DNA of 64,000 nucleotides from Eledone cirrhosa. Lineage: Eukaryota. Shown piece by piece: positions 17,416 through 53,168 of the stretch. Within the stretch, counting starts at the first letter, position 1. Each line of letters starts with the position of its first letter. The translations under genes and the position numbers were made by a program. The notes under the pieces were generated by a model that made no database searches, was not told where the DNA came from, and saw nothing but the letters and a program-made list of their open reading frames with translations. The stretch spans positions 209,746,001 to 209,810,000 of the forward strand of contig OZ024742.1 in the NCBI GenBank assembly GCA_964016885.1, written 5' to 3'.

Positions 17416-17532
17416 GTACGTATTGGTTATATCGAACATTAATAATATTCAATTCGTTTGTAAACAAACGGCCCGACTAAAGCTGTGCCGTGCCGATGAC
17501 TAATCGTCATCCGTTTGTTCAACATTGCCATT

Positions 17533-17587
17533 GAGGAACAATCAACATGTTTCTGGGTCATTACCCTTCATCAGGACTGTATACCTC
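17533..17587 (-). ncRNA. Minimal type I hammerhead ribozyme
   Basis: Minus strand: GAGG..CAGTC-CTGATGA-aGGGT aatg ACCCa-GAAA-CATG-TT^-GATTG..CCTC. Palindromic stem III (ACATGT). Confidence 0.8.
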
Positions 17588-17684
17588 TGTCAATCTGTTG
17601 AATGGTTGAAAATATATAGTATTTTCTTAAGTATACATCGACTGAGTAGCCTCATTGCATACCAAGCGAATTACAGCTGACCGC

Positions 17685-17805
<121 letters not shown>

Positions 17806-18384: not shown

Positions 18385-18750
18385 AGGAAAAAAGATGAAA
18401 TCGAAAATGCAACAGGAGTCTTTTTTTAAATATATATTTATTTGGTTCCTTTACCGGTGGTTTCGCAGTTCTTCTCTAAGCTTGAAACTAATACATCCTT
18501 CCTGTGTCAGTGTTGAAGAAAAAGGCGAAGATGGTTGCCTGAACACAGTACGGCGTAATTCGGGCTGTTTGTTTATAAACAAACCGAGCATTATAATAAA
18601 TGTTCGGTAAACACATAGGTACATATATATATATGTGTGTGCATGTATGTATATATATACATACTACTGTACGTCTGTATGCATATATGTATGTACGTAC
18701 ACATACATACTTACATTTAAGTACCAGCCGTACTAAGAGTGAGAAATGAA

Positions 18751-18810
<60 letters not shown>

Positions 18811-18941
18811 ATAAATGCTCTGAAATAGCGATATATATGTGAATATAGACATAGAATATTCGAAAATATTCTGTATGTTTATAATAAACATTTTGAAGAC
18901 CTAATCGCTATAGAATAGAATACGTCACGTATTACAATTAG

Positions 18942-19030
18942 ATTCTCGATAAAAGCAAGGGAAGTAATCTACGCGTTTCATTCTTGTTAGAAATCATCAG
19001 GACTACATATCCAGTGCTTTTATCGAGAAT
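18942..19030 (-). ncRNA. Type I hammerhead ribozyme, first of 6 minus-strand copies (others start at 19252, 19562, 19872, 20182, 20492)
   Basis: Reverse complement of the motif at 20890-20978. Confidence 0.88.
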
Positions 19031-20889
19031 GACACAGCTAGAGACTTATAGAATACTTAGCTGTGTACAGGAACTGGTTTGAAAGAGCGGTTGCCGGTCC
19101 GGCAGAAATTAGAAATTGGAATAAATGCTCTGAAATAGCGATATATATGTGAATATAGACATAGAATATTCGAAAATATTCTGTATGTTTATAATAAACA
19201 TTTTGAAGACCTAATCGCTATAGAATAGAATACGTCACGTATTACAATTAGATTCTCGATAAAAGCAAGGGAAGTAATCTACGCGTTTCATTCTTGTTAG
19301 AAATCATCAGGACTACATATCCAGTGCTTTTATCGAGAATGACACAGCTAGAGACTTATAGAATACTTAGCTGTGTACAGGAACTGGTTTGAAAGAGCGG
19401 TTGCCGGTCCGGCAGAAATTAGAAATTGGAATAAATGCTCTGAAATAGCGATATATATGTGAATATAGACATAGAATATTCGAAAATATTCTCTATGTTT
19501 ATAATAAACATTTTGAAGACCTAATCGCTATAGAATAGAATACGTCACGTATTACAATTAGATTCTCGATAAAAGCAAGGGAAGTAATCTACGCGTTTCA
19601 TTCTTGTTAGAAATCATCAGGACTACATATCCAGTGCTTTTATCGAGAATGACACAGCTAGAGACTTATAGAATACTTAGCTGTGTACAGGAACTGGTTT
19701 GAAAGAGCGGTTGCCGGTCCGGCAGAAATTAGAAATTGGAATAAATGCTCTGAAATAGCGATATATATGTGAATATAGACATAGAATATTCGAAAATATT
19801 CTGTATGTTTATAATAAACATTTTGAAGACCTAATCGCTATAGAATAGAATACGTCACGTATTACAATTAGATTCTCGATAAAAGCAAGGGAAGTAATCT
19901 ACGCGTTTCATTCTTGTTAGAAATCATCAGGACTACATATCCAGTGCTTTTATCGAGAATGACACAGCTAGAGACTTATAGAATACTTAGCTGTGTACAG
20001 GAACTGGTTTGAAAGAGCGGTTGCCGGTCCGGCAGAAATTAGAAATTGGAATAAATGCTCTGAAATAGCGATATATATGTGAATATAGACATAGAATATT
20101 CGAAAATATTCTGTATGTTTATAATAAACATTTTGAAGACCTAATCGCTATAGAATAGAATACGTCACGTATTACAATTAGATTCTCGATAAAAGCAAGG
20201 GAAGTAATCTACGCGTTTCATTCTTGTTAGAAATCATCAGGACTACATATCCAGTGCTTTTATCGAGAATGACACAGCTAGAGACTTATAGAATACTTAG
20301 CTGTGTACAGGAACTGGTTTGAAAGAGCGGTTGCCGGTCCGGCAGAAATTAGAAATTGGAATAAATGCTCTGAAATAGCGATATATATGTGAATATAGAC
20401 ATAGAATATTCGAAAATATTCTGTATGTTTATAATAAACATTTTGAAGACCTAATCGCTATAGAATAGAATACGTCACGTATTACAATTAGATTCTCGAT
20501 AAAAGCAAGGGAAGTAATCTACGCGTTTCATTCTTGTTAGAAATCATCAGGACTACATATCCAGTGCTTTTATCGAGAATGACACAGCTAGAGACTTATA
20601 GAATACTTAGCTGTGTACAGGAACTGGTTTGAAAGAGCGGTTGCCGGTCCCTTGCTTTTATCGAGAATCTAATTGTAATACGTGACGTATTCTATTCTAT
20701 AGCGATTAGGTCTTCAAAATGTTTATTATAAACATACAGAATATTTTCGAATATTCTATGTCTATATTCACATATATATCGCTATTTCAGAGCATTTATT
20801 CCAATTTCTAATTTCTGCCGGACCGGCAACCGCTCTTTCAAACCAGTTCCTGTACACAGCTAAGTATTCTATAAGTCTCTAGCTGTGTC

Positions 20890-20978
20890 ATTCTCGATAA
20901 AAGCACTGGATATGTAGTCCTGATGATTTCTAACAAGAATGAAACGCGTAGATTACTTCCCTTGCTTTTATCGAGAAT
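20890..20978 (+). ncRNA. Type I hammerhead ribozyme (second + copy at 21200-21288)
   Basis: ATTCTCGATAAAAGCA-ctggatat-GTAGTC-CTGATGA-tTTCT aaca AGAAt-GAAA-CGCG-TA^-GATTAC-ttccct-TGCTTTTATCGAGAAT. Stem I is 6 bp, an internal loop and a 16-bp extension. Palindromic ACGCGT stem III, GUA cleavage triplet. Confidence 0.9.
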
Positions 20979-21386
20979 CTAATTGTAATACGTGACGTAT
21001 TCTATTCTATAGCGATTAGGTCTTCAAAATGTTTATTATAAACATACAGAATATTTTCGAATATTCTATGTCTATATTCACATATATATCGCTATTTCAG
21101 AGCATTTATTCCAATTTCTAATTTCTGCCGGACCGGCAACCGCTCTTTCAAACCAGTTCCTGTACACAGCTAAGTATTCTATAAGTCTCTAGCTGTGTCA
21201 TTCTCGATAAAAGCACTGGATATGTAGTCCTGATGATTTCTAACAAGAATGAAACGCGTAGATTACTTCCCTTGCTTTTATCGAGAATCTAATTGTAATA
21301 CGTGACGTATTCTATTCTATAGCGATTAGGTCTTCAAAATGTTTATTATAAACATACAGAATATTTTCGAATATTCTATGTCTATA

Positions 21387-21439
<53 letters not shown>

Positions 21440-27873: not shown

Positions 27874-28521
27874 CATATATATGTATATATATATATGTAT
27901 ATGTATATATATATATACATATACATATATTCATTAGTTAAGCAAAACAAGACCACAAATTTCACAAGGAAGACATTATTAAAAGATTGTCAACATATTT
28001 TAGTTTGATGTAAGGAATGTAGAGAATAATAATAATAATATTAATAATAATAATGTCCGTTTACAATTGTTTCGCTACTCCATATAATATTTCTGGATCA
28101 GATGACTATATATCATAATTGATCTGGTTCAGTTGAAAATAATTAACATATTTAAAAGACAGAGCGGCTCATCGGAACTTCAAAGTAATATAAATTAAAA
28201 TAAAGAGAGAATGTTACATAATATTATGTTCCATATATTGTTTTTTTACTATGGTTTCTTGGTTGCATCAGTTGTCGGCCATAATCAAGCAGTATTCATC
28301 TGTCGAGACTGCATTGTGTGAGATCTGCCTATGGGTGACAGGATGGCTGCCAAAGGACATATTTACCTTACTAATTAGAGGGTGGTTTCAGGGGATGTAA
28401 CTCCTCGAGAGGTTAGAAATTGTGGGTGTTTATAGTTAAGTGCTAATTTTTAAATTTTTTACTTGAGAGACAATATAGGGGAGGTAACTTATAATAATCT
28501 AAGTTGTTCATAGCAATTTAA

Positions 28522-29259
28522 CTTATTACCATAATTAGATATTACAAACTCTTTAATAAAAATAACATTAAAATCTCATTCTCCACAACACCTAACCTAG
28601 CTAGCCACATCGCATTCAGTAACCATCATAAGCTAAGACAGTATAACTCCGACACCGCGGTACCACCACCCCTATCAAATACAACAGGCCACTACACCAA
28701 TAATTACTCTAGTAGCACACCTTCCCCATCTAATCCTTCTAGCACGGACCTACCGCTTAGGTTAAACTGCCCTACTCTCACTAACCGCAGGAGCAACTGC
28801 AACTGCCGTTACCCCAATGCATTCCCATTAAATGGACACTGCCTGACACCCAACATAGTCTATAGGTGCACGGTTAAAACTGCTTCGAATACCAGCTCTT
28901 ATATCGGGTCTACCTCTAACCCTTTTAAGGTACGCTATAACGCCCACTCTTTTTCCTCCCGAGACCCTAGCAACAGATGCTCGACATCGCTAGCTAGGCT
29001 TATTAAAAACCTTAAATTAAACAACGTTCAACACTCACTAAAATGGGATATCGTGGCTAGGGCCCAACCGTTCAATGGACGAAGAAAATCTTGTGATCTC
29101 TGTATTACAGAAGCATATTACATAACTCTATCACGACCTCTACCGATTAATGATAGAACGGAGGTAACTATTAGCTGTCAACATCGAAGGGCTAATTCCT
29201 TCGCCAATAGAATACTTGACCCAACTTATTCATCTAGCCCCATTTTTACTTGTAGCTAA
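28522..29259 (+). pseudogene. Penelope-like (Naiad-type) RT C-terminus plus GIY-YIG endonuclease, open frame without ATG
   Basis: KLFNKNNIKISFSTTPNL...CNCR..FPLNGHCL..NIVYRCTV...SYIGSTSNPFKVRYNAH...LKWDIVARAQPF...CDLCITE...INDRTE..SCQH. Confidence 0.88.
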
Positions 29260-29597
29260 TAAGTTAAATTGCTATGAACAACTTAGATAATTATAAGTTA
29301 CCTCCCCTACATTGTCTCTCAATTAAAAAATTTAAAAATTAGCACTTAACTATAAACACCCACAATTTCTAATCTCTCGAGGAGTTACTTCCTCTGAAGC
29401 CACCCTCTAATTAGTAAGGTAAATATGCCCTTTGGCAGCCATCTTGTTACCCATAGGCAGATCTCACACAATGCAGCCTCGACAGATGAATACTGCTTGA
29501 TTATGGCTGACAACTGATGCAACCAAGACACCATAGTAAAAACCAATATATGGAACATTATATTATGTAACATTATCCTATTATTTTAATTTATATT

Positions 29598-29728
29598 CCT
29601 TTGAAGTTCCGATGAGCCACTCTGTCTTTTAAATATGTTAATTATTTTCAACTGAACCAGATCAATTATGATATATAGTCATCTGATCCAGAAATATTAT
29701 ATGGAGTAGCGAAACAATTGTAAACGGA
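29598..29728 (+). ncRNA. Hammerhead ribozyme in the Penelope pLTR (inverted copy at ~28056-28185)
   Basis: TCC..GTT-CCGATGA-GCCACTC...GAGTAGC-GAAA-CAATTG-TA^-AAC-GGA. Long stem II, palindromic stem III. Confidence 0.65.
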
Positions 29729-29984
29729 CATTATTATTATTATTAATATTATTATTATTATTCTCTACATTCCTTACATCAAACTAAAATATGTTGACAA
29801 TCTTTTAATAATGTCTTCCTTGTAAAATTTGTGGTCTTGTCTTGGTTAACTAATGAATATATATATATATAGTTAGGGAAGCAGAAAATTGCTTATTGTA
29901 ATCCATATATATATATATATATTCCTTCTATATACTGTACCGATTGTATTGCTATTTCTGTTTACATTTTACACACACACACAC

Positions 29985-37715: not shown

Positions 37716-37963
37716 GTTATATATATATATGTGTATACCTGTGTATTTGCTAGCATTAGCGTACATCTGTACGCATATGTTAGTAGATATACTAAATTCT
37801 CTCTCTCTATATATATATATATATGTTCATCCCTGGTTCAATCGAGGGTAACCAAAGTAAGTAAAGTACTCAATACATAGTAGAGTATAAATATTTAATA
37901 TCGAAATGGCTTCTTCAGGACTAGAACTATTTCATTCAGGAGAAATCACGAGGAAATCCTTGT

Positions 37964-38014
37964 GTTTTCCTGATGATTTCTTCCGAATGAAACAGTTCTA
38001 GTCCTGTAGAAGCC
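37964..38014 (+). ncRNA. Type I hammerhead ribozyme with a decayed inverted copy at 37908-37956
   Basis: GTTTTC-CTGATGA-tTTC ttcc GAAt-GAAA-CAG ttctagtc CTG-TA^-GAAGCC. Confidence 0.75.
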
Positions 38015-38017
38015 AAT

Positions 38018-38111
<94 letters not shown>

Positions 38112-42603: not shown

Positions 42604-45600
42604 TCAGATATTCAGGACGTATCGGAGGGTTCTTGCCGTTCCAAGCAAGCATGCCTTTTGAAGCGTTCCAAAAAGCGTGAAGGGGCCGATTTTCTTTAAC
42701 CATCCCTGGAAACCTTTGGAGATAGTCCCCAGTGCGCCTATGACAATCGGGATCACTTTGACTTCATGGCAGTTCCAAATCCTTTTCACCTCCCACTTTA
42801 GGTCCTGGTATCGGTTAATTTTCTCCCTCTCCTTCTCTTGCACTCTCGTGTCGAACGGGCAGGCCACATCCACAATCAGGCACGATCTTTTTTCTTTGTC
42901 CACAACCACCAGGTCAGGTCTATTGTGTTCCAGTTTTTTGTCCGTCTGTATCCTAAAATCCCACAGCACCTTCACCTGACTGTTCTCCATCACCGCCTCT
43001 GGCCTATGCTCATACCATTTCTCAGAATGTGGTAGATTGTTTACTTTGCACAGGTGCCAGTGGATCACCCTGCCCATCACATCGTGTCTCCAGCCCTTAT
43101 AGTGGGTCTGGGCTAGGTGTTTACACTCGGACACAATGTGAGCCACAGTCTCCTCTCTCTCTCCACAGATCCTGCACAGTGGGCTAGCCTCCTCCTTGTA
43201 GATATGGTGCTTCAACCACTTCGTTTTGAGGGCCTGCTCCTGCGCAGCCATTAGCATTCCTTCTGTAGCCTTTTTGAGGTCTCCTCTTCTCAACCAGTTC
43301 CATGTCTGTGGATCTCTAAATTCAGTTTTCTCAAAGAAGGTACTATGAAGGGATTTTCCCTTAAGGCTGCTCTTCCTCCTTGATGTTATTTCCTCCTTGG
43401 GTATCCCCTGGCCTACTGTCCCCTCCTTCAGTACAGCTCTGAGCATTGGCTCCTTACTATAGGTCACGTATTTGTATAGGTTGTTTTTCTCCATCTGAAC
43501 ACAGTCCTCTATGCTGATAAGACCTCTTCCACCCTCAGATCTCCTTAGGTAGAGTCTATCGACATCACTCCTCTTGTGGAACATGTTGTAGATAGTCAAT
43601 AGCTTCCTAGTCTTCCTATCCATTTCTTTTTGTTCAGCAACATTCCATCTCAGAATTCCCGCACTGTACCTAATAATAGACACAGCTCGGGAATTTACTG
43701 CGCTTATGGCATTTCTGCTGTTCAGATGTGACTTCAATACGCTCCTTACTCTCCGAATGTATTCAGTTCTTAACAATTCCTTCATTTTTTTGTTCTTTAT
43801 GCCATCAGCCTCCAGAACGCCCAAATACTTGTATCCTTCCTCAGAGTCAATTTCCTTTATCATCTCACCTGTTGGTATCTGGATCCCGTTACTTCTGCTC
43901 AACCTACCCCTCCTCATCACAATGACTCCACATTTACCAATACCAAACTGCATACATATATCACTGCTGAAAATACGGACAGTGTCAACAAGCACATCCA
44001 ACTCCTTCTCACTTTTCCCGAAGAGCTTAAGATCGTCCATGAAGAGGAGGTGATTGATGGTAAGCTCTCCCCTTCCCAACTTGTATCCTGCTCTCACTTT
44101 TCGCAGCATAATGGTCAAGGGCATCAGGGCAAGGACAAACAACAGAGGGGACAGGCTATCTCCCTGGAAGATACCTCTCTTGATCTTCACGCTTCCCAAG
44201 GATACTCCAGTTGATGTCAACTCTGTCTCCCAGGACCCCATACTCCTGCCCAGCAACTGTCTGATGTTATCTGCCACCCTGAAGATCTCCAGGCTTTTGG
44301 TGATCCAGGAATGAGGCACCATGTCAAATGCCTTTCTGTAGTCTATCCATCCCATGGCAAGATCAGTGTGTCTCCTCCTGCAATTCCCCATTACCATCTT
44401 ATCAATAAGCAACTGGTCCTTTGTACCACGTGACTTCTTTCGGCATCCTTTCTGTTCGTCCGGCAACAAGTTGTTTGTGTGGAGGTGATGGTAGATTTCC
44501 TCAGACACAATGCTCGTCAACAGTTTCCACATTACGGGCAGACATGTGATAGGTCTATAGTTGGTAACATCATTACCCTTGATTCGGTCTTTCATTATCA
44601 GAACTGTGGTACCTTTTGTCAACCACTCTGGCACCTCACCCGACACCAAGCAGTCATTGAACATGGCCGTCAGCTTCGGGTGGAGGGATGTTAAATGTTT
44701 AATCCAATACCCCTGCACACCATCTGGGCCTGGTGATTTCCAGTTGGTTAGTTTTTTGGCTTGCCCCTTAAGAGTTTCAACTGTGATACTCAAATCAGTC
44801 TGTTGCTGTGCCTGCTCACCGATCTCCCTCTGTACTGTCTCAATCCACCCTGCCTGGGCATTGTGTCTAACATCCTGCTCCCATATTCCTCTCCAGAATG
44901 TTTTAGCTTGTTCCGCCCCAGGGATCAAGTCGGTGCCTCTTTCTTTCCCCTCAAGCTGTCCAAACAGCATCTTCTGGTTGTTGTCGAACATGCGGTTCTG
45001 TTTATACTGACTGACTCTGTTCTCGTATCGCCTGATTTTGGCACTCTTTGCTACAATGCGTTGCTTCAATTCCTCTATGATAATGTTTAGCTTTTTACTC
45101 CTAGTTTTGTATTTTATTTCCAGTCTATTTTTAGTGCCTATGTTTTTTAGTGTCCCATTCAGTAGTGACTCAAGCTTTCCTATGTCATTTCTCATTTCCC
45201 CGATTTGCCCACTCAGTCGCTTCTTCCACCACGGCTCTGCTCTTTCTTGTCTGTTGTTTCCTCTCGCTTTTATACCAAGTAGTTTCCTCACCGTATTTGC
45301 TGTTGCTTTGAGGATATTGTTGCACTGGTGAAGACTCCTCGCCTCAAGGTATGGGATGACTTTGTTTACCTTAGCTGTTGTTTCTTTTAACTTTTTCCTG
45401 TCTACAAATCTTAGGTTCATAGGTCTCCCACTATCATTGTTCAACTCATCTACCACTAAATTTAGGATGTCAACCGAATCTTGTCCTAGCCCGTCAGCAT
45501 TCATCTCCTCAGTGGCCGTATCTCTGTTCCAGGTATTATTTATCTCAGTATTCAGATCATTGTCTGCTTCGGGTGGTTCCTCCGCTCTCAGGACCTCCTC

Positions 45601-45996
45601 ACCTTCATTTCCCGCCGGCTCGCTTGTCTGGCATACTACACCCGCCATCTCCAAGCCATTCTCTCTGCTCAGTTCCTCCAGTTCCAGCTCGCTTATCCAC
45701 CCATTAGTTCTTATTACCCGAGCCTGCCCGGCCAATTTTTGTTCATCTAATTTAAATAAACCAATCTCGTTCCAGATGTTATGCATCCGTCTCCTGTAGC
45801 CCCTCTCCTTGGGGTTACTTTTCAGGTAGCATTGCATAACAGTTCTATTCAATTCTTTCGTCCAGTTGGTTCTGGCCCCTTTCCTTCTTCTTCTTCCTCC
45901 AACATCAGCAGTATTTCGTTGACAGTCAGGTTCCTGCTGCTGAGCCAGGTGGCACCTGTTGGGTGAGAGTCTGTCACATGACGTTCTAGTCTCCAT
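42604..45996 (-). CDS. Intact R4/Dong-clade non-LTR retrotransposon ORF (N-terminal Myb-like region, RT, CCHC, PD-(D/E)xK endonuclease), 1130 aa
   Basis: KSPGPDG, NYRPITCL, WIDYRKAFD, RGIFQGDSLSP, HLLFMDDLKL, CRIC...ETVAHIVSEC, RHD, HNRPDLVVVD, KINRY. (TAA/CAA)n tail at ~42470-42530. Confidence 0.95.
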   Translation of the reverse strand: METRTSCDRLSPNRCHLAQQQEPDCQRNTADVGGRRRRKGARTNWTKELNRTVMQCYLKSNPKERGYRRRMHNIWNEIGLFKLDEQKLAGQARVIRTNGWISELELEELSRENGLEMAGVVCQTSEPAGNEGEEVLRAEEPPEADNDLNTEINNTWNRDTATEEMNADGLGQDSVDILNLVVDELNNDSGRPMNLRFVDRKKLKETTAKVNKVIPYLEARSLHQCNNILKATANTVRKLLGIKARGNNRQERAEPWWKKRLSGQIGEMRNDIGKLESLLNGTLKNIGTKNRLEIKYKTRSKKLNIIIEELKQRIVAKSAKIRRYENRVSQYKQNRMFDNNQKMLFGQLEGKERGTDLIPGAEQAKTFWRGIWEQDVRHNAQAGWIETVQREIGEQAQQQTDLSITVETLKGQAKKLTNWKSPGPDGVQGYWIKHLTSLHPKLTAMFNDCLVSGEVPEWLTKGTTVLIMKDRIKGNDVTNYRPITCLPVMWKLLTSIVSEEIYHHLHTNNLLPDEQKGCRKKSRGTKDQLLIDKMVMGNCRRRHTDLAMGWIDYRKAFDMVPHSWITKSLEIFRVADNIRQLLGRSMGSWETELTSTGVSLGSVKIKRGIFQGDSLSPLLFVLALMPLTIMLRKVRAGYKLGRGELTINHLLFMDDLKLFGKSEKELDVLVDTVRIFSSDICMQFGIGKCGVIVMRRGRLSRSNGIQIPTGEMIKEIDSEEGYKYLGVLEADGIKNKKMKELLRTEYIRRVRSVLKSHLNSRNAISAVNSRAVSIIRYSAGILRWNVAEQKEMDRKTRKLLTIYNMFHKRSDVDRLYLRRSEGGRGLISIEDCVQMEKNNLYKYVTYSKEPMLRAVLKEGTVGQGIPKEEITSRRKSSLKGKSLHSTFFEKTEFRDPQTWNWLRRGDLKKATEGMLMAAQEQALKTKWLKHHIYKEEASPLCRICGEREETVAHIVSECKHLAQTHYKGWRHDVMGRVIHWHLCKVNNLPHSEKWYEHRPEAVMENSQVKVLWDFRIQTDKKLEHNRPDLVVVDKEKRSCLIVDVACPFDTRVQEKEREKINRYQDLKWEVKRIWNCHEVKVIPIVIGALGTISKGFQGWLKKIGPFTLFGTLQKACLLGTARTLRYVLNI

Positions 45997-46565
45997 TTCA
46001 CCGTTATTCGAACTGTTTATGTTCGATATTTAAACACTCTTATCGAGGATTGGCGAATGTATGTTTACATAGCCATCTGTGGATCCGCCATCCCACTTGG
46101 CCCTTGTGTGGCATTATCACCACGCTGTATACGGACACACATAAACAAACAAACACACGGGCAGAAAGGGCCCCAAAAATGAATAAGCATAAGTTTCATT
46201 GTAATGTAGTATTCGAATGTCTGACTTAGTTTTTGTTTTTTAAGTTTTACTTTTTCCCCCCTCTTCTCTGTCCGTCCGCCTGCTTCTCTCTTCATTCTTA
46301 TTTTCTTTACGTTTTGGGGGTTTCTTTTTTTGTTTTTGTTTTTCTCTGTTTTTCTCGTTTTTTACTGTTGTTGCTGTGCTGCTTTTGTTGTTTGTTTTTT
46401 CTTTTTTCTTTTGAGTCTATATATATATTTTGATGCCTTCCTCTTTGTTAGTAGTAGGAATTCTATAATGTGGAAGTGGTAGCCAGCAGAGACTAGCGGC
46501 GTTGGCGATACTGAGACAGTGGTGGCGGTGATGTCGATACCGAGGCAGTGGTGGCGGTGATGCGA

Positions 46566-47208: not shown

Positions 47209-47571
47209 CTTATAACAATATATTTTGGGTCCGAATTTTTTGGGGCTCAAGCCGGGTGCTTTACGTAGCATTTGTACTAAGAGTTGTTATTTCACAAATG
47301 ATTTAAATATGTTAAAAATTCAAAACTTACGGGAGCGATTTCATGACCTCCGTCACCTCGTGCGTCTTCTTCCCTTCCATTATTATTATTATTATTATTG
47401 AATGCCATGGTTGACGGAGGCTCGGCTCTGTAAGGTATAGTAATTTTTAACCGTTAAAACAATTGTAAATTGCTTAAAACTTGAACCAAATTGTTGATAA
47501 AGACACCCTCCTCCTCGTGAGAGGGGTCTTTCTGTCCGTTATTTGGCCCTTCGGGGTTAAATAACCAGTTA

Positions 47572-49713
47572 TTGGGGTTTTGTACCCAAAATTTCATTTT
47601 AAACAAAAAAACATGGCTACCAAAAAAAAAAAAATTTCATACGTCACTCCCACTCATTCCGTCTTCTTCTTCCTCAATCATCACTACAGGAGAGAGAAGA
47701 TTGTCTCTCTCCCTCCCTTCTTTAAATGTGTCTCTCTCCCTACCTTCTCTTTCGCAAGCGACGAAAGAAAAGAAAAGTCTCGTGCAAAGCGTGCAAGGTT
47801 TCTCCACGACGACGACGACAGCGACGAAACAGGTGTGCGGGAAATACGAAAACCCAGTTCATTCGTCTGACGTCAGGAATAATAGCAGTAGCAGCCGTAA
47901 TAACAACAGCAACAGTGACAATGAAAACAACAGTAGCAGCCGCAACAGCATCACCAGCAGCATAAACAACAACACCATTAGCAGCAGCAACACCAACAAC
48001 AACCACAGCAACAGCGGCGGAGGCAGTAGTCGTAGTACCTGCAGCAACAACAAAAGTACCAGCAGCTCTGACGACAACAACAACAGCAGAGAAAAACCAA
48101 TCTCATTTGCAGGTATTGCGAAAAACCTGGAAACAATCCTCATAACAAATGAGGAATTAGAGGAAGCGAAGAAGATGGTGACAAAGAACGGACACCGAGC
48201 AATCTGCAAGGCAGCGAAAAATTTTTTCGAAACCCAAGAGCACTGTACGGTCACGTACCGTACAGTAAGTACAAAATCCCGTAGGGTGGAAAGAGCCACA
48301 GAGGCCCAAATACAAAAAGCCTTGGGGTCTGTGTGGCAGAGGAAAACGCACATCACCCGAGGCAAAAAATACGCCACCGTAGACGTACTTTTTGCCACAC
48401 CCCAGGAGGCAAAGGCCCAATCAGTAGTGACCCTAAGGAGCGAGGAAATGGTGTTGGTGCCCTCCTACTGCGGGCAAAAAATTGTGAGGGTCAAACTGAC
48501 CCACGTCCCCCCCGGAATGACCCCTTCTTGGCTGGCCGCGTCTGTCCTCGTCGGAATCGAGGACAAAACAACTGTACTGCAAGTACAGAAAAAAGTAAGA
48601 GAAGATTGGGTCGGCTCCTCCATTGAGATGCTAATACAAACCAACCAGGAGTGCATCGAAGCTATCCCGGATGTGATAGACTTCGATAACGGCACTCAAC
48701 TGCCCATAAGTGTTGAGGGCAAACGCCCGAAATGCTTTCGCTGTGGATCGAAGACTCACCTCAGGGCCTTCTGCAACGAGAAGACCCTGAGAAAGGAGAA
48801 AACCCCCCTCCTCCCGAATCCGGTTCCACGGCTACCAGCAACAGGACAAGCGGCAACCAGGAACGATAGGTCCGTGGCACCCATACCCACTCCACGGAAA
48901 TCAAAGACAGCAGCAGCAGTGGAAATATTAACAACAACAACAGCAATACCAAATGCAGCTGCAACAGAGACTCCAGTGCAAACATCACCAACAACAACAA
49001 GTGAAAGAGTGGAGCTGGTACCCCTCCCCGACCTTACAGAATCAGACATGGAGTGTGAGGTGGGAGAGGGATGGCAAAAGGTCTCAAGAAGGCACAAACG
49101 CAGAAGCAGCGCATCGTCGCCTTTGAAAAGGGAGGAAAGAAATGAGAAAAGGGTAAAGTCTACTGCAAAGAGACCCACAGCAGCAACACCACCAACACCA
49201 TCACCACCCACACCAGCACCACCATCACCACCGGCGACAACCCCACCGCCAACAACACCTTCAACACCACCACCACAAGCACCAACATCGCAAACACAAC
49301 AACAAAACACACACACCCAGCAACAACGACAAGAAAATAGCAGAACCACACCCCACCCCCAGAAAAACAAATGCACGGCAATAAACACACACAACAAGAA
49401 ACTAATGACTTACATAATTGAACACACAGACATTTCACAACAGGACTACATAATACCAGCACCAATCAAAACGCCAACTAACATAAGACTGCTAAAAATA
49501 GCACAGAAACAATACACAAACATTAAAACGAAATTCCCCAACGCAGTTGGTGATTTCAGGGACCTAGGAGGAACCATTAATCGAAGAGTATATTCAGACA
49601 TTCTCTTAGAAGAGCCGACGACCAGCCGAAGGGACGATTCAACGGTCCCTTCACCAGACGATCAAGTGAAAAGGGATGTAAAAACCATCCCTCCTCTACC
49701 AAAAATACGGTAA
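47572..49713 (+). CDS. Tx1/L1-clade LINE ORF1 (gag-like, CCHC zinc knuckle, low-complexity N/S and P/T tracts)
   Basis: CFRCGSKTHLRAFC, GWQKVSRRHKR. Lies directly upstream of ORF2. The true start is probably the ATG at 47613. Confidence 0.85.
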   Translation: MGFCTQNFILNKKTWLPKKKKFHTSLPLIPSSSSSIITTGERRLSLSLPSLNVSLSLPSLSQATKEKKSLVQSVQGFSTTTTTATKQVCGKYENPVHSSDVRNNSSSSRNNNSNSDNENNSSSRNSITSSINNNTISSSNTNNNHSNSGGGSSRSTCSNNKSTSSSDDNNNSREKPISFAGIAKNLETILITNEELEEAKKMVTKNGHRAICKAAKNFFETQEHCTVTYRTVSTKSRRVERATEAQIQKALGSVWQRKTHITRGKKYATVDVLFATPQEAKAQSVVTLRSEEMVLVPSYCGQKIVRVKLTHVPPGMTPSWLAASVLVGIEDKTTVLQVQKKVREDWVGSSIEMLIQTNQECIEAIPDVIDFDNGTQLPISVEGKRPKCFRCGSKTHLRAFCNEKTLRKEKTPLLPNPVPRLPATGQAATRNDRSVAPIPTPRKSKTAAAVEILTTTTAIPNAAATETPVQTSPTTTSERVELVPLPDLTESDMECEVGEGWQKVSRRHKRRSSASSPLKREERNEKRVKSTAKRPTAATPPTPSPPTPAPPSPPATTPPPTTPSTPPPQAPTSQTQQQNTHTQQQRQENSRTTPHPQKNKCTAINTHNKKLMTYIIEHTDISQQDYIIPAPIKTPTNIRLLKIAQKQYTNIKTKFPNAVGDFRDLGGTINRRVYSDILLEEPTTSRRDDSTVPSPDDQVKRDVKTIPPLPKIR

Positions 49714-49748
49714 GTGGTCTTTCCCATCTTTTCCACTCTATTTTAAAC

Positions 49749-52700
49749 ATGACCTCACTCAGAATAGGCAGCATAAATGCGCGTGGCTTGGGGTCGTCAT
49801 GGAAGCAGGGTCACCTGCTCAACGACCTCAGGTCACTAAACATAGATGTAGTGGCCATCAGCGAGACCAGAATCTCCGAAGCACGGGCCTTCGCACCGAT
49901 CTTCGGCGGCTACGATGTGTACGCATCTCCCAGCCGTCCTGGATCGGGTGGAGGAGTTGCTGTGCTTTTTCGGAGAGGTTTGGATCTCGCCATACGGGCC
50001 ATCTTCCTGGACCCAGAGGGTAAGCTGGTGGTGCTGGACGTGACCAGCGGAGACGGGCAAGCTTTCAGGCTAGTGGCCGTCTATGCCCCGACAGGAGCAG
50101 GGCGGCCTGATTTCTTCCGGCGTCTGGAGACCTTTCTTGGAACGTCGCGCTCTTTAGTGTTAGTGGGCGACTGGAACGGGATCTTAGATGCACGCTGGGA
50201 CTGTGTGGGATTAGCGGATAGGGGTGGAGGGTGCAAGAGCCTCACCAACCTGCTCAGGCGTTTTGAACTGTCTGACAGGTACCGATTGGATTTCCCGAAT
50301 GTGCCAATGTGGACTTGGACAAACCGCATAGGGTCATCCAGATCATATCTAGATAGAGTATTTTGTAGGGAAATAGATAGGTCTAGCATAGGCTGTCCAC
50401 AATTCAAGATAGTCAGCTACACGGACCACAAATTCGTGATCTGTGTGCTTGACTTAGATAGGCTTCATAGACGAGGACCCGGCTACTGGAAGCTAAACGC
50501 GTCCTTACCAGCGCGCAAGGCCTACAGAGACCGGATTAGCGAACTAGTTAAGCGGGCGTTGACGGGGGCCATCGTCAACAACAAGTGGTGGTTTGCTCTG
50601 AAAAGAGCGATTAGAATAGAATCGATTAGGTTTAGTAAGGCTTTAGCAATAGAGAAAAATAGAGCAGAGGGAGAACTAGTTAGAAAATTAGACGAGGCGC
50701 TTAGCAAAGGCATTGCGACCGACGTGCTTGCGGCGAAATTGGCCCTTGACCAATTCTTCAATGCAAAGCACGAAGGCTGCGTTGTCAGAGCTAGGGTGCG
50801 TGCTCTCAGACACGAGGGGACGAAAGCCGTTCAATGGGCCCGAGTGGCGGAGGCGCGTCGTGGCAACAAAGCCACGATCCGGTCTTTGGTGGACCACGAC
50901 GGGCGCATGCTACTCGATCCCGGGCAAATGTGTGAAGCTTTTCAGCGACACTTCGCTCAGCTGTTCGGGGGCAGCGGGGGGCCGGGTAGAGGGATGGACT
51001 TTAGTGTCTACCTCGACGGACTGCCGCGGCTCTCGGCCACTGAGGCGAAGTGTTGCGAAAAGCCGATAACAGCCGCTGAAGTAAGGGAGGCAATGACTGG
51101 CTGCACAAGGGGTAAATCGCCTGGTTTGGATGGTCTGCCCTATGAACTTTACGTACAGATGCCAGACTTGTTCGGAGGCCTCTTGGCGGACGTCTACTGC
51201 AACTGGCAACAGAACGGGAGAATTCCCAGTTCTGTGAGCCGAGGAGCGGTGGCACTGCTGAGAAAGGATCCGAACAAGGGGGATAACATAGACAATTTCC
51301 GGCCCATAACTCTGCTAAACACAGAGTTTAAGATTTTGGCCAAGGTGCTAGCAAAGAGGTTGGCGCTTGTCGTTGGTGGTCTGGTGGGAGAGGCGCAGAC
51401 ATGCGCCATTCCCGACAGATCCATCCACGACAACCTCCACCTCATGCGATACATCGTAGAGAGGGTAGCTAGGGAACCTGGCACGGGTGGGTCCTTGATC
51501 AATTTAGATCAGTCGAAAGCTTTCGATAGGGTCGACCATCGTTACCTAGCGGCAGTCCTGAGGGCGGCTGGCTTTGGGCCCGTCTTCAGAGGCTGGATCG
51601 CTGCCATGCACAGCGACATCTGCTCTGTGGTGAGAGTGAACGGTCACCTGTCGGAACCGTTCAACATCATGCGCTCGGTCCGCCAAGGATGTCCCCTCTC
51701 GTCCCTCTTGTACGTATTGACTCTCGAGCCATTACTGCACAAACTGGAGACGTTGAGGGGAGTCCCGCGCGAACTAGGATGCGGAAGATCCGTGTCAGCA
51801 TATGCGGACGATGTCACCGTAGTGGTGTCGAACGCCAAACACATCGAGGCGATCGGCACTACACTAAGAGAATACGAAGCGGTGACAGGAGCAATGATCA
51901 ACCAGGAAAAGTCAGTGGGCCTGCAGCTCGGCACCTGGAGAGGCAGGTCCATGCCGTCCAACAGCGTCGTCGGGCGCTGGACGGACGGACCGGTTAAATT
52001 GCTAGGGGTCTGGTTCGGTCCGGACCTCCAGACGGACAAAAACTGGGACGAGGTGACGAGCAGGGTGGCTTCTCTCACCCAGAAATGGGCGGAGAGGAAG
52101 CTATCCCTGAAAGGTCGAGCGGAGGTGGCTAACGCGTACATCGCGTCTGTCATCTGCTACCGCCTAACCGTCGTACCTTGTCCTAAGCCTCGCCTGACTG
52201 CGCTGGAGCGTTTGCTCTTTCGCTTTTTGTGGAAGGGACGTGCTCCGATGGTCAGGCGGTCCATCTGTTGTCAACACCCGCTACGTGGAGGGCTGGGCAT
52301 GCCGTGGCTGATGATGCGCAGGCACGCGCTCAGGCTACGACATCTCCACCTCTTCCTCGACGGTGATCAGGTGTGGTCGCCGTTTGCTAGACGCGTTTTT
52401 CCCCAGCTCGTTTCCTTGACGGAGCTGCAGTCCTGGGTCAAGCGAAGACCGAGAGGGAGCGCCTGGAGACTGGAATGTCTTCAGGCGCTCACAGCCCTCG
52501 ACCAATCGGGCAATGTGATCGGTGGAAACTCCACCTCGGCGTTCTATAGAGGATTAGTGGAGGGGAAGAGCGACGACGTACTTGGGGAAACTCTAGGCGT
52601 CGACGAAAATCAACTAGCCAATCTCTTCGGAAGAACTTTCGGGCCAGGGCCTATGGACAACTTCCAGAAATCTCTGGCCTGGCAGTGCTACCGAGGAGCC

Positions 52701-53168
52701 TTGCCAGTTCGGGATAAACTCTACAGGCATGGAGGTGCCGTCAGCCGGGCATGTCCGAGATGCGCGCAGGGCGACGAAACCGTCCTGCACGCACTCGTCC
52801 AGTGTCCGAAAATTGCTGACTTGTGGGTTTATGTCGAACACCTGCTGTCGCGTTTAGGACGGATCCAGCTATCATCTGAGTCTATCGTGAGGATTGCCCC
52901 GCCCTCCTCCTTTAGCCGGGAAGGGCAGGCAGTTTTTATCTGTCTGGTGGCCATGGCGAAAGAGATAGTATGGTGGACACGTTTGAAAGGGCTGAAGACG
53001 AGCACTTACCTCTTCGGTGATGCTCTGATTGACTTTTTCAAATTTCATTTGAAAAGGAAAATCAGAGTAGAGAAGGAAGTGCTCTCTTTCCAGCATTTTG
53101 TTGAAAGATGGGTGAGAGAAGCAAGAATGGCCCGAGTGAATGGGCCGACTCTGAGTATATATCTGTAA
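49749..53168 (+). CDS. Intact Tx1/L1-clade LINE ORF2 (APE endonuclease, RT, C-terminal zinc finger), 1139 aa
   Basis: SINARGL, SET, VYAP, GDWN, SYLD, TDH, GYWKLN, KSPGLDGL, RPITLLN, LDQSKAFDRVDH, RQGCPLS, AYADD, CPRC..ETVLHALVQC. AATAAA then (ATT)n tail at 53419-53485. Confidence 0.96.
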   Translation: MTSLRIGSINARGLGSSWKQGHLLNDLRSLNIDVVAISETRISEARAFAPIFGGYDVYASPSRPGSGGGVAVLFRRGLDLAIRAIFLDPEGKLVVLDVTSGDGQAFRLVAVYAPTGAGRPDFFRRLETFLGTSRSLVLVGDWNGILDARWDCVGLADRGGGCKSLTNLLRRFELSDRYRLDFPNVPMWTWTNRIGSSRSYLDRVFCREIDRSSIGCPQFKIVSYTDHKFVICVLDLDRLHRRGPGYWKLNASLPARKAYRDRISELVKRALTGAIVNNKWWFALKRAIRIESIRFSKALAIEKNRAEGELVRKLDEALSKGIATDVLAAKLALDQFFNAKHEGCVVRARVRALRHEGTKAVQWARVAEARRGNKATIRSLVDHDGRMLLDPGQMCEAFQRHFAQLFGGSGGPGRGMDFSVYLDGLPRLSATEAKCCEKPITAAEVREAMTGCTRGKSPGLDGLPYELYVQMPDLFGGLLADVYCNWQQNGRIPSSVSRGAVALLRKDPNKGDNIDNFRPITLLNTEFKILAKVLAKRLALVVGGLVGEAQTCAIPDRSIHDNLHLMRYIVERVAREPGTGGSLINLDQSKAFDRVDHRYLAAVLRAAGFGPVFRGWIAAMHSDICSVVRVNGHLSEPFNIMRSVRQGCPLSSLLYVLTLEPLLHKLETLRGVPRELGCGRSVSAYADDVTVVVSNAKHIEAIGTTLREYEAVTGAMINQEKSVGLQLGTWRGRSMPSNSVVGRWTDGPVKLLGVWFGPDLQTDKNWDEVTSRVASLTQKWAERKLSLKGRAEVANAYIASVICYRLTVVPCPKPRLTALERLLFRFLWKGRAPMVRRSICCQHPLRGGLGMPWLMMRRHALRLRHLHLFLDGDQVWSPFARRVFPQLVSLTELQSWVKRRPRGSAWRLECLQALTALDQSGNVIGGNSTSAFYRGLVEGKSDDVLGETLGVDENQLANLFGRTFGPGPMDNFQKSLAWQCYRGALPVRDKLYRHGGAVSRACPRCAQGDETVLHALVQCPKIADLWVYVEHLLSRLGRIQLSSESIVRIAPPSSFSREGQAVFICLVAMAKEIVWWTRLKGLKTSTYLFGDALIDFFKFHLKRKIRVEKEVLSFQHFVERWVREARMARVNGPTLSIYL

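What the first reader, a model, noticed from the sequence alone, without database searches (positions are those of the whole stretch)
18805..21390. Hammerhead-ribozyme array: likely footprint of rolling-circle reverse transcription of a 310-nt circular RNA (retrozyme)
Seen: a 310-bp non-coding unit repeated ~5.95 times, then ~2.4 times inverted. Units are virtually identical (one SNP seen, at 19493) and sit inside (TA)n. Each unit has a complete type I hammerhead (GTAGTC-CTGATGA-stem II-GAAA-CGCG-TA^-GATTAC, plus a 16-bp distal stem I). The rest of the unit is a chain of hairpins: ACACAGCTA/TAGCTGTGT, AGAATATT/AATATTCT, TGCCGG/CCGGCA, ATACGT/ACGTAT. Known: tandem 170-400-nt units with type I HHRs (non-LTR retrozymes) give self-cleaved monomers and circRNAs in some metazoans, and palindromic minimal stem III HHRs cleave as dimers. 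Inference: this is a very recent insertion of a viroid-like circRNA copied several times around by a Penelope RT. I am not aware of such a system being described for this lineage.
Basis: partly seen in the sequence, partly recalled or inferred. Interest (0 to 1): 0.92.

Follow-up and report, generated by a model that had tools for sequence, protein, structure and literature searches.

The report
Ribozyme RNA circle copied into genome
This is one of about a thousand or more near-identical insertions of a 310-letter non-coding repeat that carries a predicted self-cutting RNA motif; their shape suggests each was likely written into the genome by a jumping-gene enzyme copying round and round a single RNA circle.

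Summary
The array is real and is a non-LTR retrozyme: a 310-nt non-coding unit with a type I hammerhead whose short palindromic stem III would need a dimer. The genome holds at least 15,002 units in at least 987 insertions. Most insertions examined have two arms set head to head in (TA)n. Their outer ends are not permuted: they are fixed at monomer positions ~165 and ~131-139, which matches the two-start-site 'tail' signature of Penelope-like elements (PLEs). Arrays are clonal. There are 25 array-wide haplotypes among 69 arrays, and both arms share one in 55 of 57 (shuffled mean 10). Single-unit mutations are almost never shared between arms. All 669 passes over the cut site are free of unit-private damage. 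This fits one monomer copied repeatedly, most simply a circle read by a PLE reverse transcriptase from two primers. Not shown: cleavage, the RNA circle, or which PLE supplies the enzyme. Four coding PLE families have the same geometry, but none matches in sequence. Three arrays show order patterns that a pure single-circle model does not explain. Verdict: known kind of element with unusually direct genomic evidence for its proposed mechanism.

The parts
18805..20650 (-). Arm A: 5.95 tandem units in ribozyme sense on the minus strand; outer (3') end at monomer position 165, inner (5') end at position 180
20648..21399 (+). Arm B: 2.4 units; inner (5') end at monomer position 8, outer (3') end at position 131 (to 139 by TA homology)
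20648..20650 (.). 3-nt microhomology (TCC) joining the two arms head to head
20951..21260 (+). Predicted self-cleaved monomer / circle, 310 nt (position 1 = 20951)
   Evidence: circular fold z = -4.7
20914..20956 (+). Type I hammerhead: stem I 20914-20919 with 20951-20956, CUGAUGA 20920-20926, stem II closed by U-U, GAAA, palindromic ACGCGU stem III, predicted cut after 20950
21224..21266 (+). Second plus-strand hammerhead, predicted cut after 21260
18964..20556 (-). Six minus-strand hammerheads, 310 bp apart (18964-19006 ... 20514-20556)
20890..20978 (+). 16-bp distal stem (20890-20905 with 20963-20978) that extends stem I
18805..18838 (-). 'Tail': the ~26-34 nt (monomer ~131/139-165) present on only one outer end, inferred to lie between two reverse-transcription start sites; conserved in a 65%-identical sibling family
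19493..19493 (.). The only substitution in the array
18751..18806 (.). (TA)n target, left
21390..21439 (.). (TA)n target, right

Best explanation
This is a young, high-copy non-coding tandem element with a predicted hammerhead ribozyme (a non-LTR retrozyme), and each insertion was likely made by a Penelope-like reverse transcriptase/endonuclease, borrowed from another element, copying repeatedly round one 310-nt RNA circle. Steps: (1) read-through transcripts of arrays self-cleave as dimeric hammerheads (inferred). (2) The monomer is ligated into a circle (inferred). (3) A PLE protein cuts both strands of a (TA)n tract and primes two cDNAs inside the RNA, at ~165 and ~131-139 nt after the cut site (fixed ends and target shown; enzyme inferred). 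(4) Each cDNA runs round the template, on average 5.6 and 3.7 turns and up to more than 22 (arm lengths shown; circular template inferred). (5) The two cDNAs are joined at variable points, mostly with short microhomology, giving head-to-head arms (shown).
For: Copy number: 15,002 exact 21-mers, 987 '165' ends and 715 '131' ends abutting TA; reversed-pattern controls 0. Architecture: of the first 10 arrays on C1 chosen by the ribozyme alone, 8 are two-armed head to head, 1 is one-armed and 1 is cut by an N gap. Of 20 loci chosen by the 165 end alone, 17 have an inverted arm ending at 138-139, 1 has none and 2 run off the fetched stretch. This is the PLE signature of an inverted 5'-truncated copy plus a 30-40 bp tail (bioRxiv 2021.04.23.441226), which PMC11167929 ties to two internal RT start sites and AT-rich cleavage on both strands. 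Four coding PLE families in this genome show two fixed 3' ends next to (TA)n. Clonality: 25 array-wide haplotypes among 69 arrays. Both arms share the haplotype in 55 of 57 typable arrays, against a shuffled mean of 10 and maximum of 22. In 55,372 bp covered in register by both arms, 67 variant positions are unshared and 8 are shared, the 8 lying in 3 arrays. Cut site crossed 669 times: 613 exact, 56 with array-wide variants, none with unit-private damage. Only 1 of 126 inner ends lies at positions 1-6 (2.4 expected). Heritable variants keep the fold: 8 of 11 keep pairing against 14 of 44 private ones (Fisher p = 0.019). 10 of 23 fall in the ribozyme (p = 5e-4) and none in its core, whereas 4 of 13 private ribozyme variants hit the core; 287A restores the 10.1-11.1 pair in 12 arrays. 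Long target duplications appear where the target is not pure TA (L034 15 bp, L032 34 bp).
Against: No RNA evidence was obtained. L057: both arms begin with two units of one haplotype and then switch to another, and L097 shares a single-unit variant in register; a linear multimer predicts this, and a circle needs a simultaneous template switch or later gene conversion. L090 switches in one arm only. In L037, L083 and L100 the same variant recurs in non-adjacent units, implying DNA-level exchange or hopping between templates. Inner ends are mildly enriched at positions 1-30 (19 of 126, 12.2 expected, p = 0.049). No coding PLE matches the unit in sequence, and the end spacings I could measure are 65-85 nt (families B, C, D), not 26-35. 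In PMC11167929 hammerhead cleavage was not needed for insertion in vitro, and 8 of 9 Xenopus retrozyme dimers did not cleave. The ribozyme has a U-U at the base of stem II and is mostly unfolded in the predicted circle. 60 of the 69 arrays were chosen by end patterns, and all but the window's array lie on contig C1.
Confidence: 0.62

Rival explanations
1. The same PLE machinery, but the template is a linear, uncleaved multimeric transcript of an existing array; the ribozyme is not needed for insertion.
For: L057 and L097 share ordered patterns between arms. Mild excess of inner ends just 3' of the cut site. PAc uses unprocessed RNA in vitro (PMC11167929). Coding PLEs here also insert as more than one unit (L172).
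Against: Only 1 single-unit variant is shared in register, against about 47 unshared events (my hand count). 17 singleton haplotypes fixed across whole arrays need a one-monomer bottleneck. Repeated truncation would shorten arrays each generation, yet arms exceed 22 units. Selection on ribozyme structure is visible.
Confidence: 0.18
2. A single cleaved linear monomer is copied repeatedly by RT jumping from its 5' end back to its 3' end.
For: It gives the same clonality and needs no ligase.
Against: End-to-end jumps by non-LTR RTs usually leave added or missing bases (recalled from R2 work, not from a call); 669 passes show no unit-private junction damage.
Confidence: 0.1
3. Short insertions are made first, and the arrays then grow at DNA level (unequal exchange, slippage, or DNA-circle rolling amplification).
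For: Recurrent variants in non-adjacent units of long arms (L037, L083, L100). This is the model favoured in bioRxiv 10.64898/2026.07.22.740005.
Against: Arrays average 5e-4 private changes per bp, so growth would have had to be immediate at about a thousand loci. Stepwise growth should leave many intermediate-frequency variants, but there are 13 partial against 97 fixed. Fixed ends and two arms need the PLE step anyway.
Confidence: 0.08
4. Assembly or library artefact (fold-back chimeric reads).
For: Inverted arms with near-identical units resemble chimeras.
Against: The arms end at two different fixed sites, the flanks are not mirrored, the junctions are asymmetric, arrays carry their own haplotypes, and target duplications exist.
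Confidence: 0.02

Closest known systems
Metazoan non-LTR retrozymes (coral, mussel, axolotl; PMC7229834)
   Same: 150-450 bp low-GC non-coding tandem units with a type I hammerhead, self-paired predicted circle, long TSDs when visible; U-U at the base of helix II as in axolotl HHR_Amex2.
   Different: That paper has 0 occurrences of 'inverted', 'orientation' or 'microsatellite'. Two head-to-head arms, fixed tail ends, (TA)n targeting and array clonality are not reported there. It shows circles experimentally; none is shown here.
Penelope-like elements with GIY-YIG endonuclease (PAc, PMC11167929; Naiad and canonical PLEs, bioRxiv 2021.04.23.441226)
   Same: Tandem plus inverted 5'-truncated copy, tail on one end, internal start downstream of the hammerhead, AT-rich or (TA)n targets.
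   Different: No ORF; 310-nt unit repeated up to more than 22 times per arm; no sequence match to the four coding families examined.
Vertebrate retrozymes derived from PLE pseudo-LTRs (bioRxiv 10.64898/2026.07.22.740005)
   Same: Tandem hammerhead units that co-occur with intact PLEs.
   Different: There the link is sequence homology and tandems are proposed to grow locally; here the link is insertion geometry, and arrays look clonal from birth. No pLTR homologue was found.
Viroids and viroid-like satellite RNAs
   Same: Size, self-paired circular fold, hammerhead.
   Different: Ribozyme on one strand only; genome-encoded; no evidence of RNA-to-RNA replication or infectivity.

Membership tests
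non-LTR retrozyme | Tandem unit of 150-450 bp, GC under 50% | tested here: met
   310 bp, GC about 0.35
non-LTR retrozyme | Type I hammerhead in every unit | tested here: met
   8 of 8 by motif scan; all core nucleotides present; U-U at 10.1-11.1; below Rfam gathering score
non-LTR retrozyme | No coding capacity | tested here: met
   One search lists no frame of 120 aa or more inside the array, apart from one at 18488-18907 that is mostly TA-repeat flank
non-LTR retrozyme | No LTR, PBS or PPT | tested here: inconclusive
   No LTRs: arms run straight into (TA)n; PBS and PPT were not searched for
non-LTR retrozyme | Dispersed multi-copy family, long TSD when present | tested here: met
   At least 987 insertions; TSD 15 and 34 bp in two informative targets, unresolvable in most (TA)n targets
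non-LTR retrozyme | Self-cleavage of the transcript | not testable with these tools
   Only indirect: heritable variants avoid the core
non-LTR retrozyme | Accumulates as circular RNA | not testable with these tools
   No RNA holder listed
PLE-mobilised insertion | Inverted 5'-truncated copy adjacent to the tandem | tested here: met
   8 of 10 arrays unselected for ends; 17 of 20 chosen by one end
PLE-mobilised insertion | 30-40 bp tail on one end (two fixed 3' ends) | tested here: met
   Ends at ~165 and 131-139, i.e. 26-34 nt apart
PLE-mobilised insertion | Sequence shared with the pLTR of a coding PLE | tested here: inconclusive
   No match to families A-D; at least three further PLE lineages seen were not followed
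autonomous PLE | RT plus GIY-YIG ORF | tested here: not met
   Non-coding
viroid-like replicon | RNA-to-RNA replication, often ribozymes on both strands | tested here: inconclusive
   Ribozyme in one polarity only; replication not testable

The most novel reading that the evidence does not exclude
The genome holds about a thousand or more single-molecule records of in vivo rolling-circle reverse transcription. In each, one ribozyme-made RNA circle was read by a two-primer (probably dimeric) Penelope-type enzyme. The records give its processivity, start sites and template-switch rate, and show the circle's ribozyme evolving under selection between rounds.
Probability: 0.5. Interest if true: 0.8.

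Novelty: new member of a known kind. Interest (0 to 1): 0.62.

Why it matters
Reviews state that animal retrozymes show no motif pointing to the machinery they borrow (PMC7761336), and that how PLEs form tandem and inverted insertions is undefined. This family carries the PLE end signature on a retrozyme and shows, array by array, that each insertion descends from one monomer. That makes two open questions directly testable: whether circular RNA is the template, and how the two arms arise. It also supplies a defined 310-nt substrate and intact candidate enzymes from the same genome. The family occupies at least 4.6 Mb as long inverted repeats.

Tried and rejected
A DNA search of the own genome with the monomer returned nothing, even for the window itself; the tool skips very common words, so I used exact patterns. 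Rfam: no gathering hit. SRA: no RNA holder listed. 20 of 24 listed runs, under 17 coded organism labels, hold the unit. Three of four laid runs gave one 340-nt contig (310 + 30, as a tandem repeat or a circle would both give) at depth 10-128, and the Hi-C run gave 0 reads. Run kinds are mostly unknown, so this says nothing on expression or horizontal transfer. Partner search: family A (decayed), B (intact 714-aa frame, no hammerhead found), C (one locus, L081) and D (intact 775-aa frame) show no sequence match to the unit. The 272-nt insert in L037 belongs to a repeat cluster on C25 and was not shown to be PLE-derived. Similarity of the older 17574 family to the unit is marginal (score 147, shuffled maximum 146), so homology is not claimed. 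The constrained-fold energy failed and is not used; its structure served only as the pair table. Twin priming on one linear RNA was considered for this locus alone and dropped, because fixed ends in both arms are explained by two start sites. Five more end-unselected arrays could not be fetched, so the unselected sample stays at 10. Earlier findings: none by place, sequence or words. The host lineage was not established by any search; the TA-rich 3.0-Gb genome and its SINE look octopus-like from recall only.

Full report
Observation. The window holds a 310-bp unit repeated 5.95 times (18805-20650) and then 2.4 times inverted (20648-21399), between (TA)n tracts. The only substitution is at 19493. 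The ribozyme strand reads outward in both blocks, so the blocks are joined at their 5' ends through a 3-nt microhomology. Each unit has the full hammerhead core, a 6-bp stem I extended by a perfect 16-bp stem (z = -6.98), a 4-bp stem II closed by U-U, and a palindromic ACGCGU stem III that does not form in a monomer (probability ~0) but gives a -9.5 kcal/mol duplex. Rfam does not call it at gathering score. The circular monomer folds at z = -4.7. Below, monomer position 1 is the base after the predicted cut (20951).

Family. The own genome (3.0 Gb, 1,796 contigs) has 4,593 exact copies of one 30-nt ribozyme variant and 15,002 of a 21-mer at the cut site, so at least 4.6 Mb. It has 987 places where position 165 abuts TA and 715 where position 131 does. 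I analysed 69 arrays, about 679 units: the window's, 8 from loci chosen by the ribozyme, 40 chosen by both end patterns and 20 chosen by the 165 end only. All but the window's lie on contig C1.

Architecture. Of the first 10 arrays listed by the ribozyme pattern, 8 are two-armed and head to head, 1 is one-armed and 1 is cut by an N gap. Of the 20 chosen by one end, 17 have an inverted partner arm ending at 138-139, 1 has none and 2 leave the fetched stretch. One outer end is at 165-170 and the other at about 131-139 (L034 is a few bases shorter), while the 126 inner ends are spread round the unit (chi-square p = 0.12). Inner junctions mostly overlap or gap by a few bases. Arms ending at 165 average 5.6 units and those ending at 139 average 3.7 (n = 63 each, p = 0.011); the lengths of the two arms correlate weakly (rho 0.32, p = 0.01). 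Five arrays with incomplete or single arms and two with extra segments were left out of the length and inner-end counts. Target duplications of 15 and 34 bp are visible in L034 and L032; in most of the 65 arrays tested, pure TA hides them. This is the pattern described for PLE insertions, an inverted 5'-truncated copy and a 30-40 bp tail on one end (bioRxiv 2021.04.23.441226, passages). PMC11167929 (parts 1-2 of 4 read) shows that the tail lies between two internal RT start sites, that the enzyme cuts AT-rich DNA on both strands, and that it is predicted to be a dimer.

Coding PLEs. Four coding families in this genome end at fixed sites next to (TA)n: A (decayed; hammerhead remnant about 131 nt before the end), B (intact 714-aa frame; ends 65-70 nt apart), C (one locus; ends about +48 and +133 after its hammerhead) and D (intact 775-aa RT-GIY-YIG frame; ends about 70 nt apart). 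None matches the retrozyme in sequence, so the enzyme donor is not identified. At least three other PLE lineages appear and were not followed.

Template. Arrays fall into 25 array-wide haplotypes, 17 of them seen once; this is a lower bound because short arrays could not be typed. Both arms carry the same haplotype in 55 of 57 typable arrays (shuffle mean 10, maximum 22 of 10,000). Where both arms cover the same register from the outer end (55,372 bp), 67 variant positions are unshared and 8 are shared, in three arrays; by hand this is about 47 separate unshared events against one shared single-unit event. Private changes run at 5e-4 per bp, so the insertions are young. The cut site is crossed 669 times: 613 exact and 56 with variants fixed in their array. 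Together these need a one-monomer bottleneck followed by repeated, seamless copying, which a covalent circle gives most simply (inference).

Selection. Of 23 heritable variants, 10 lie in the 43-nt ribozyme (p = 5e-4). They fall at the free position 7, in loop II, in stem I as wobble, repair or one bulge, and as U10.1 to A, which closes stem II in 12 arrays; none is in the core. Four of 13 private ribozyme variants hit the core. Among paired positions, 8 of 11 heritable and 14 of 44 private changes keep pairing (p = 0.019). The pair table is a prediction and the numbers are small. A sibling family at 65-68% identity keeps the tail sequence and both ends.

Against. In L057 both arms start with two units of one haplotype and then switch, and L097 shares a private variant in register, as a linear multimer would predict. 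L090 switches in one arm. L037, L083 and L100 repeat a variant in non-adjacent units. Inner ends are mildly enriched at positions 1-30 (p = 0.049). PAc did not need cleavage in vitro, and 8 of 9 Xenopus dimers did not cleave. No RNA data were obtained.

Comparison with print. Non-LTR retrozymes and the hypothesis that PLEs copy their circles are published: PMC7229834 (passages, section 13 and Discussion), PMC4209133 (passages), PMC7761336 (passages) and bioRxiv 10.64898/2026.07.22.740005 (parts 1-3 of 5, the main text). In these I found no description of inverted arms, tails or array clonality for retrozymes. Six searches listed no such paper and none on octopus hammerheads. PMC13282606 (passages) does not mention ribozymes, and PMC8490949 (passages) added nothing. 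I did not open any supplements, and those of the preprints are closed; they or subscription papers may show such structures. The host lineage is not established here.

Verdict. Real; a new member of a known class, on all features testable here. The value lies in the genomic record: PLE end signature shown, one-monomer origin of each array strongly supported, circular template likely (about 0.6), enzyme donor and RNA untested. Interest 0.62.

Noticed in passing
window 17416-17687 (-): Older, diverged non-coding hammerhead element (palindromic ACAUGU stem III); 461 matches genome-wide at up to 1 mismatch, mostly dispersed single copies. Probably an older retrozyme family.
   Followed up: partly
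window 18385-18750: Directly left of the array: a 3'-end fragment of PLE family D abutting a decayed hammerhead-type element with two terminal hairpins (matched by eye).
   Followed up: partly
window 27930-29860: Decayed coding PLE (family A) with GIY-YIG frame 28522-29259 and two head-to-head arms in (TA)n; hammerhead remnant mostly CCGAUGA.
   Followed up: yes
window 37940-38020 (+); L135 5007; L196 8230-8310: Short hammerhead elements with the same U-U-closed stem II but a long, stable stem III that could work as a monomer; inverted pair in L196.
   Followed up: no
L197 22-476 and 6706-7005; L186 2548-3195; L154 163-411: Sibling retrozyme, 65-68% identical, with the same two ends; by eye its core reads UUGAUAA, a possible compensatory U3-A8 change.
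   Followed up: partly
L199 7319-8224: Another hammerhead tandem (about 465-nt spacing) with an inverted copy.
   Followed up: no
L172; L191-L202: Two young intact PLE families: B (714-aa frame, ~4.3-kb tandem units, no hammerhead found) and D (409-aa ORF1 overlapping a 775-aa RT-EN frame, suggesting a frameshift).
   Followed up: partly
L037 3099-3370; L078 2491-2615: Arm junctions with extra DNA: a 272-nt piece of a repeat clustered on C25 (97-98% identical), and a run of slipped short repeats copied from the unit.
   Followed up: partly
arrays L041, L045, L054, L098, L052: The only heritable indels in the family are single-base insertions 2-4 nt after the predicted cut/ligation site.
   Followed up: no
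window 42604-46029 (-) and 47521-53168 (+): Long open frames of LINE-type retrotransposons (1141 aa; 730 + 1195 aa), judged by eye.
   Followed up: no
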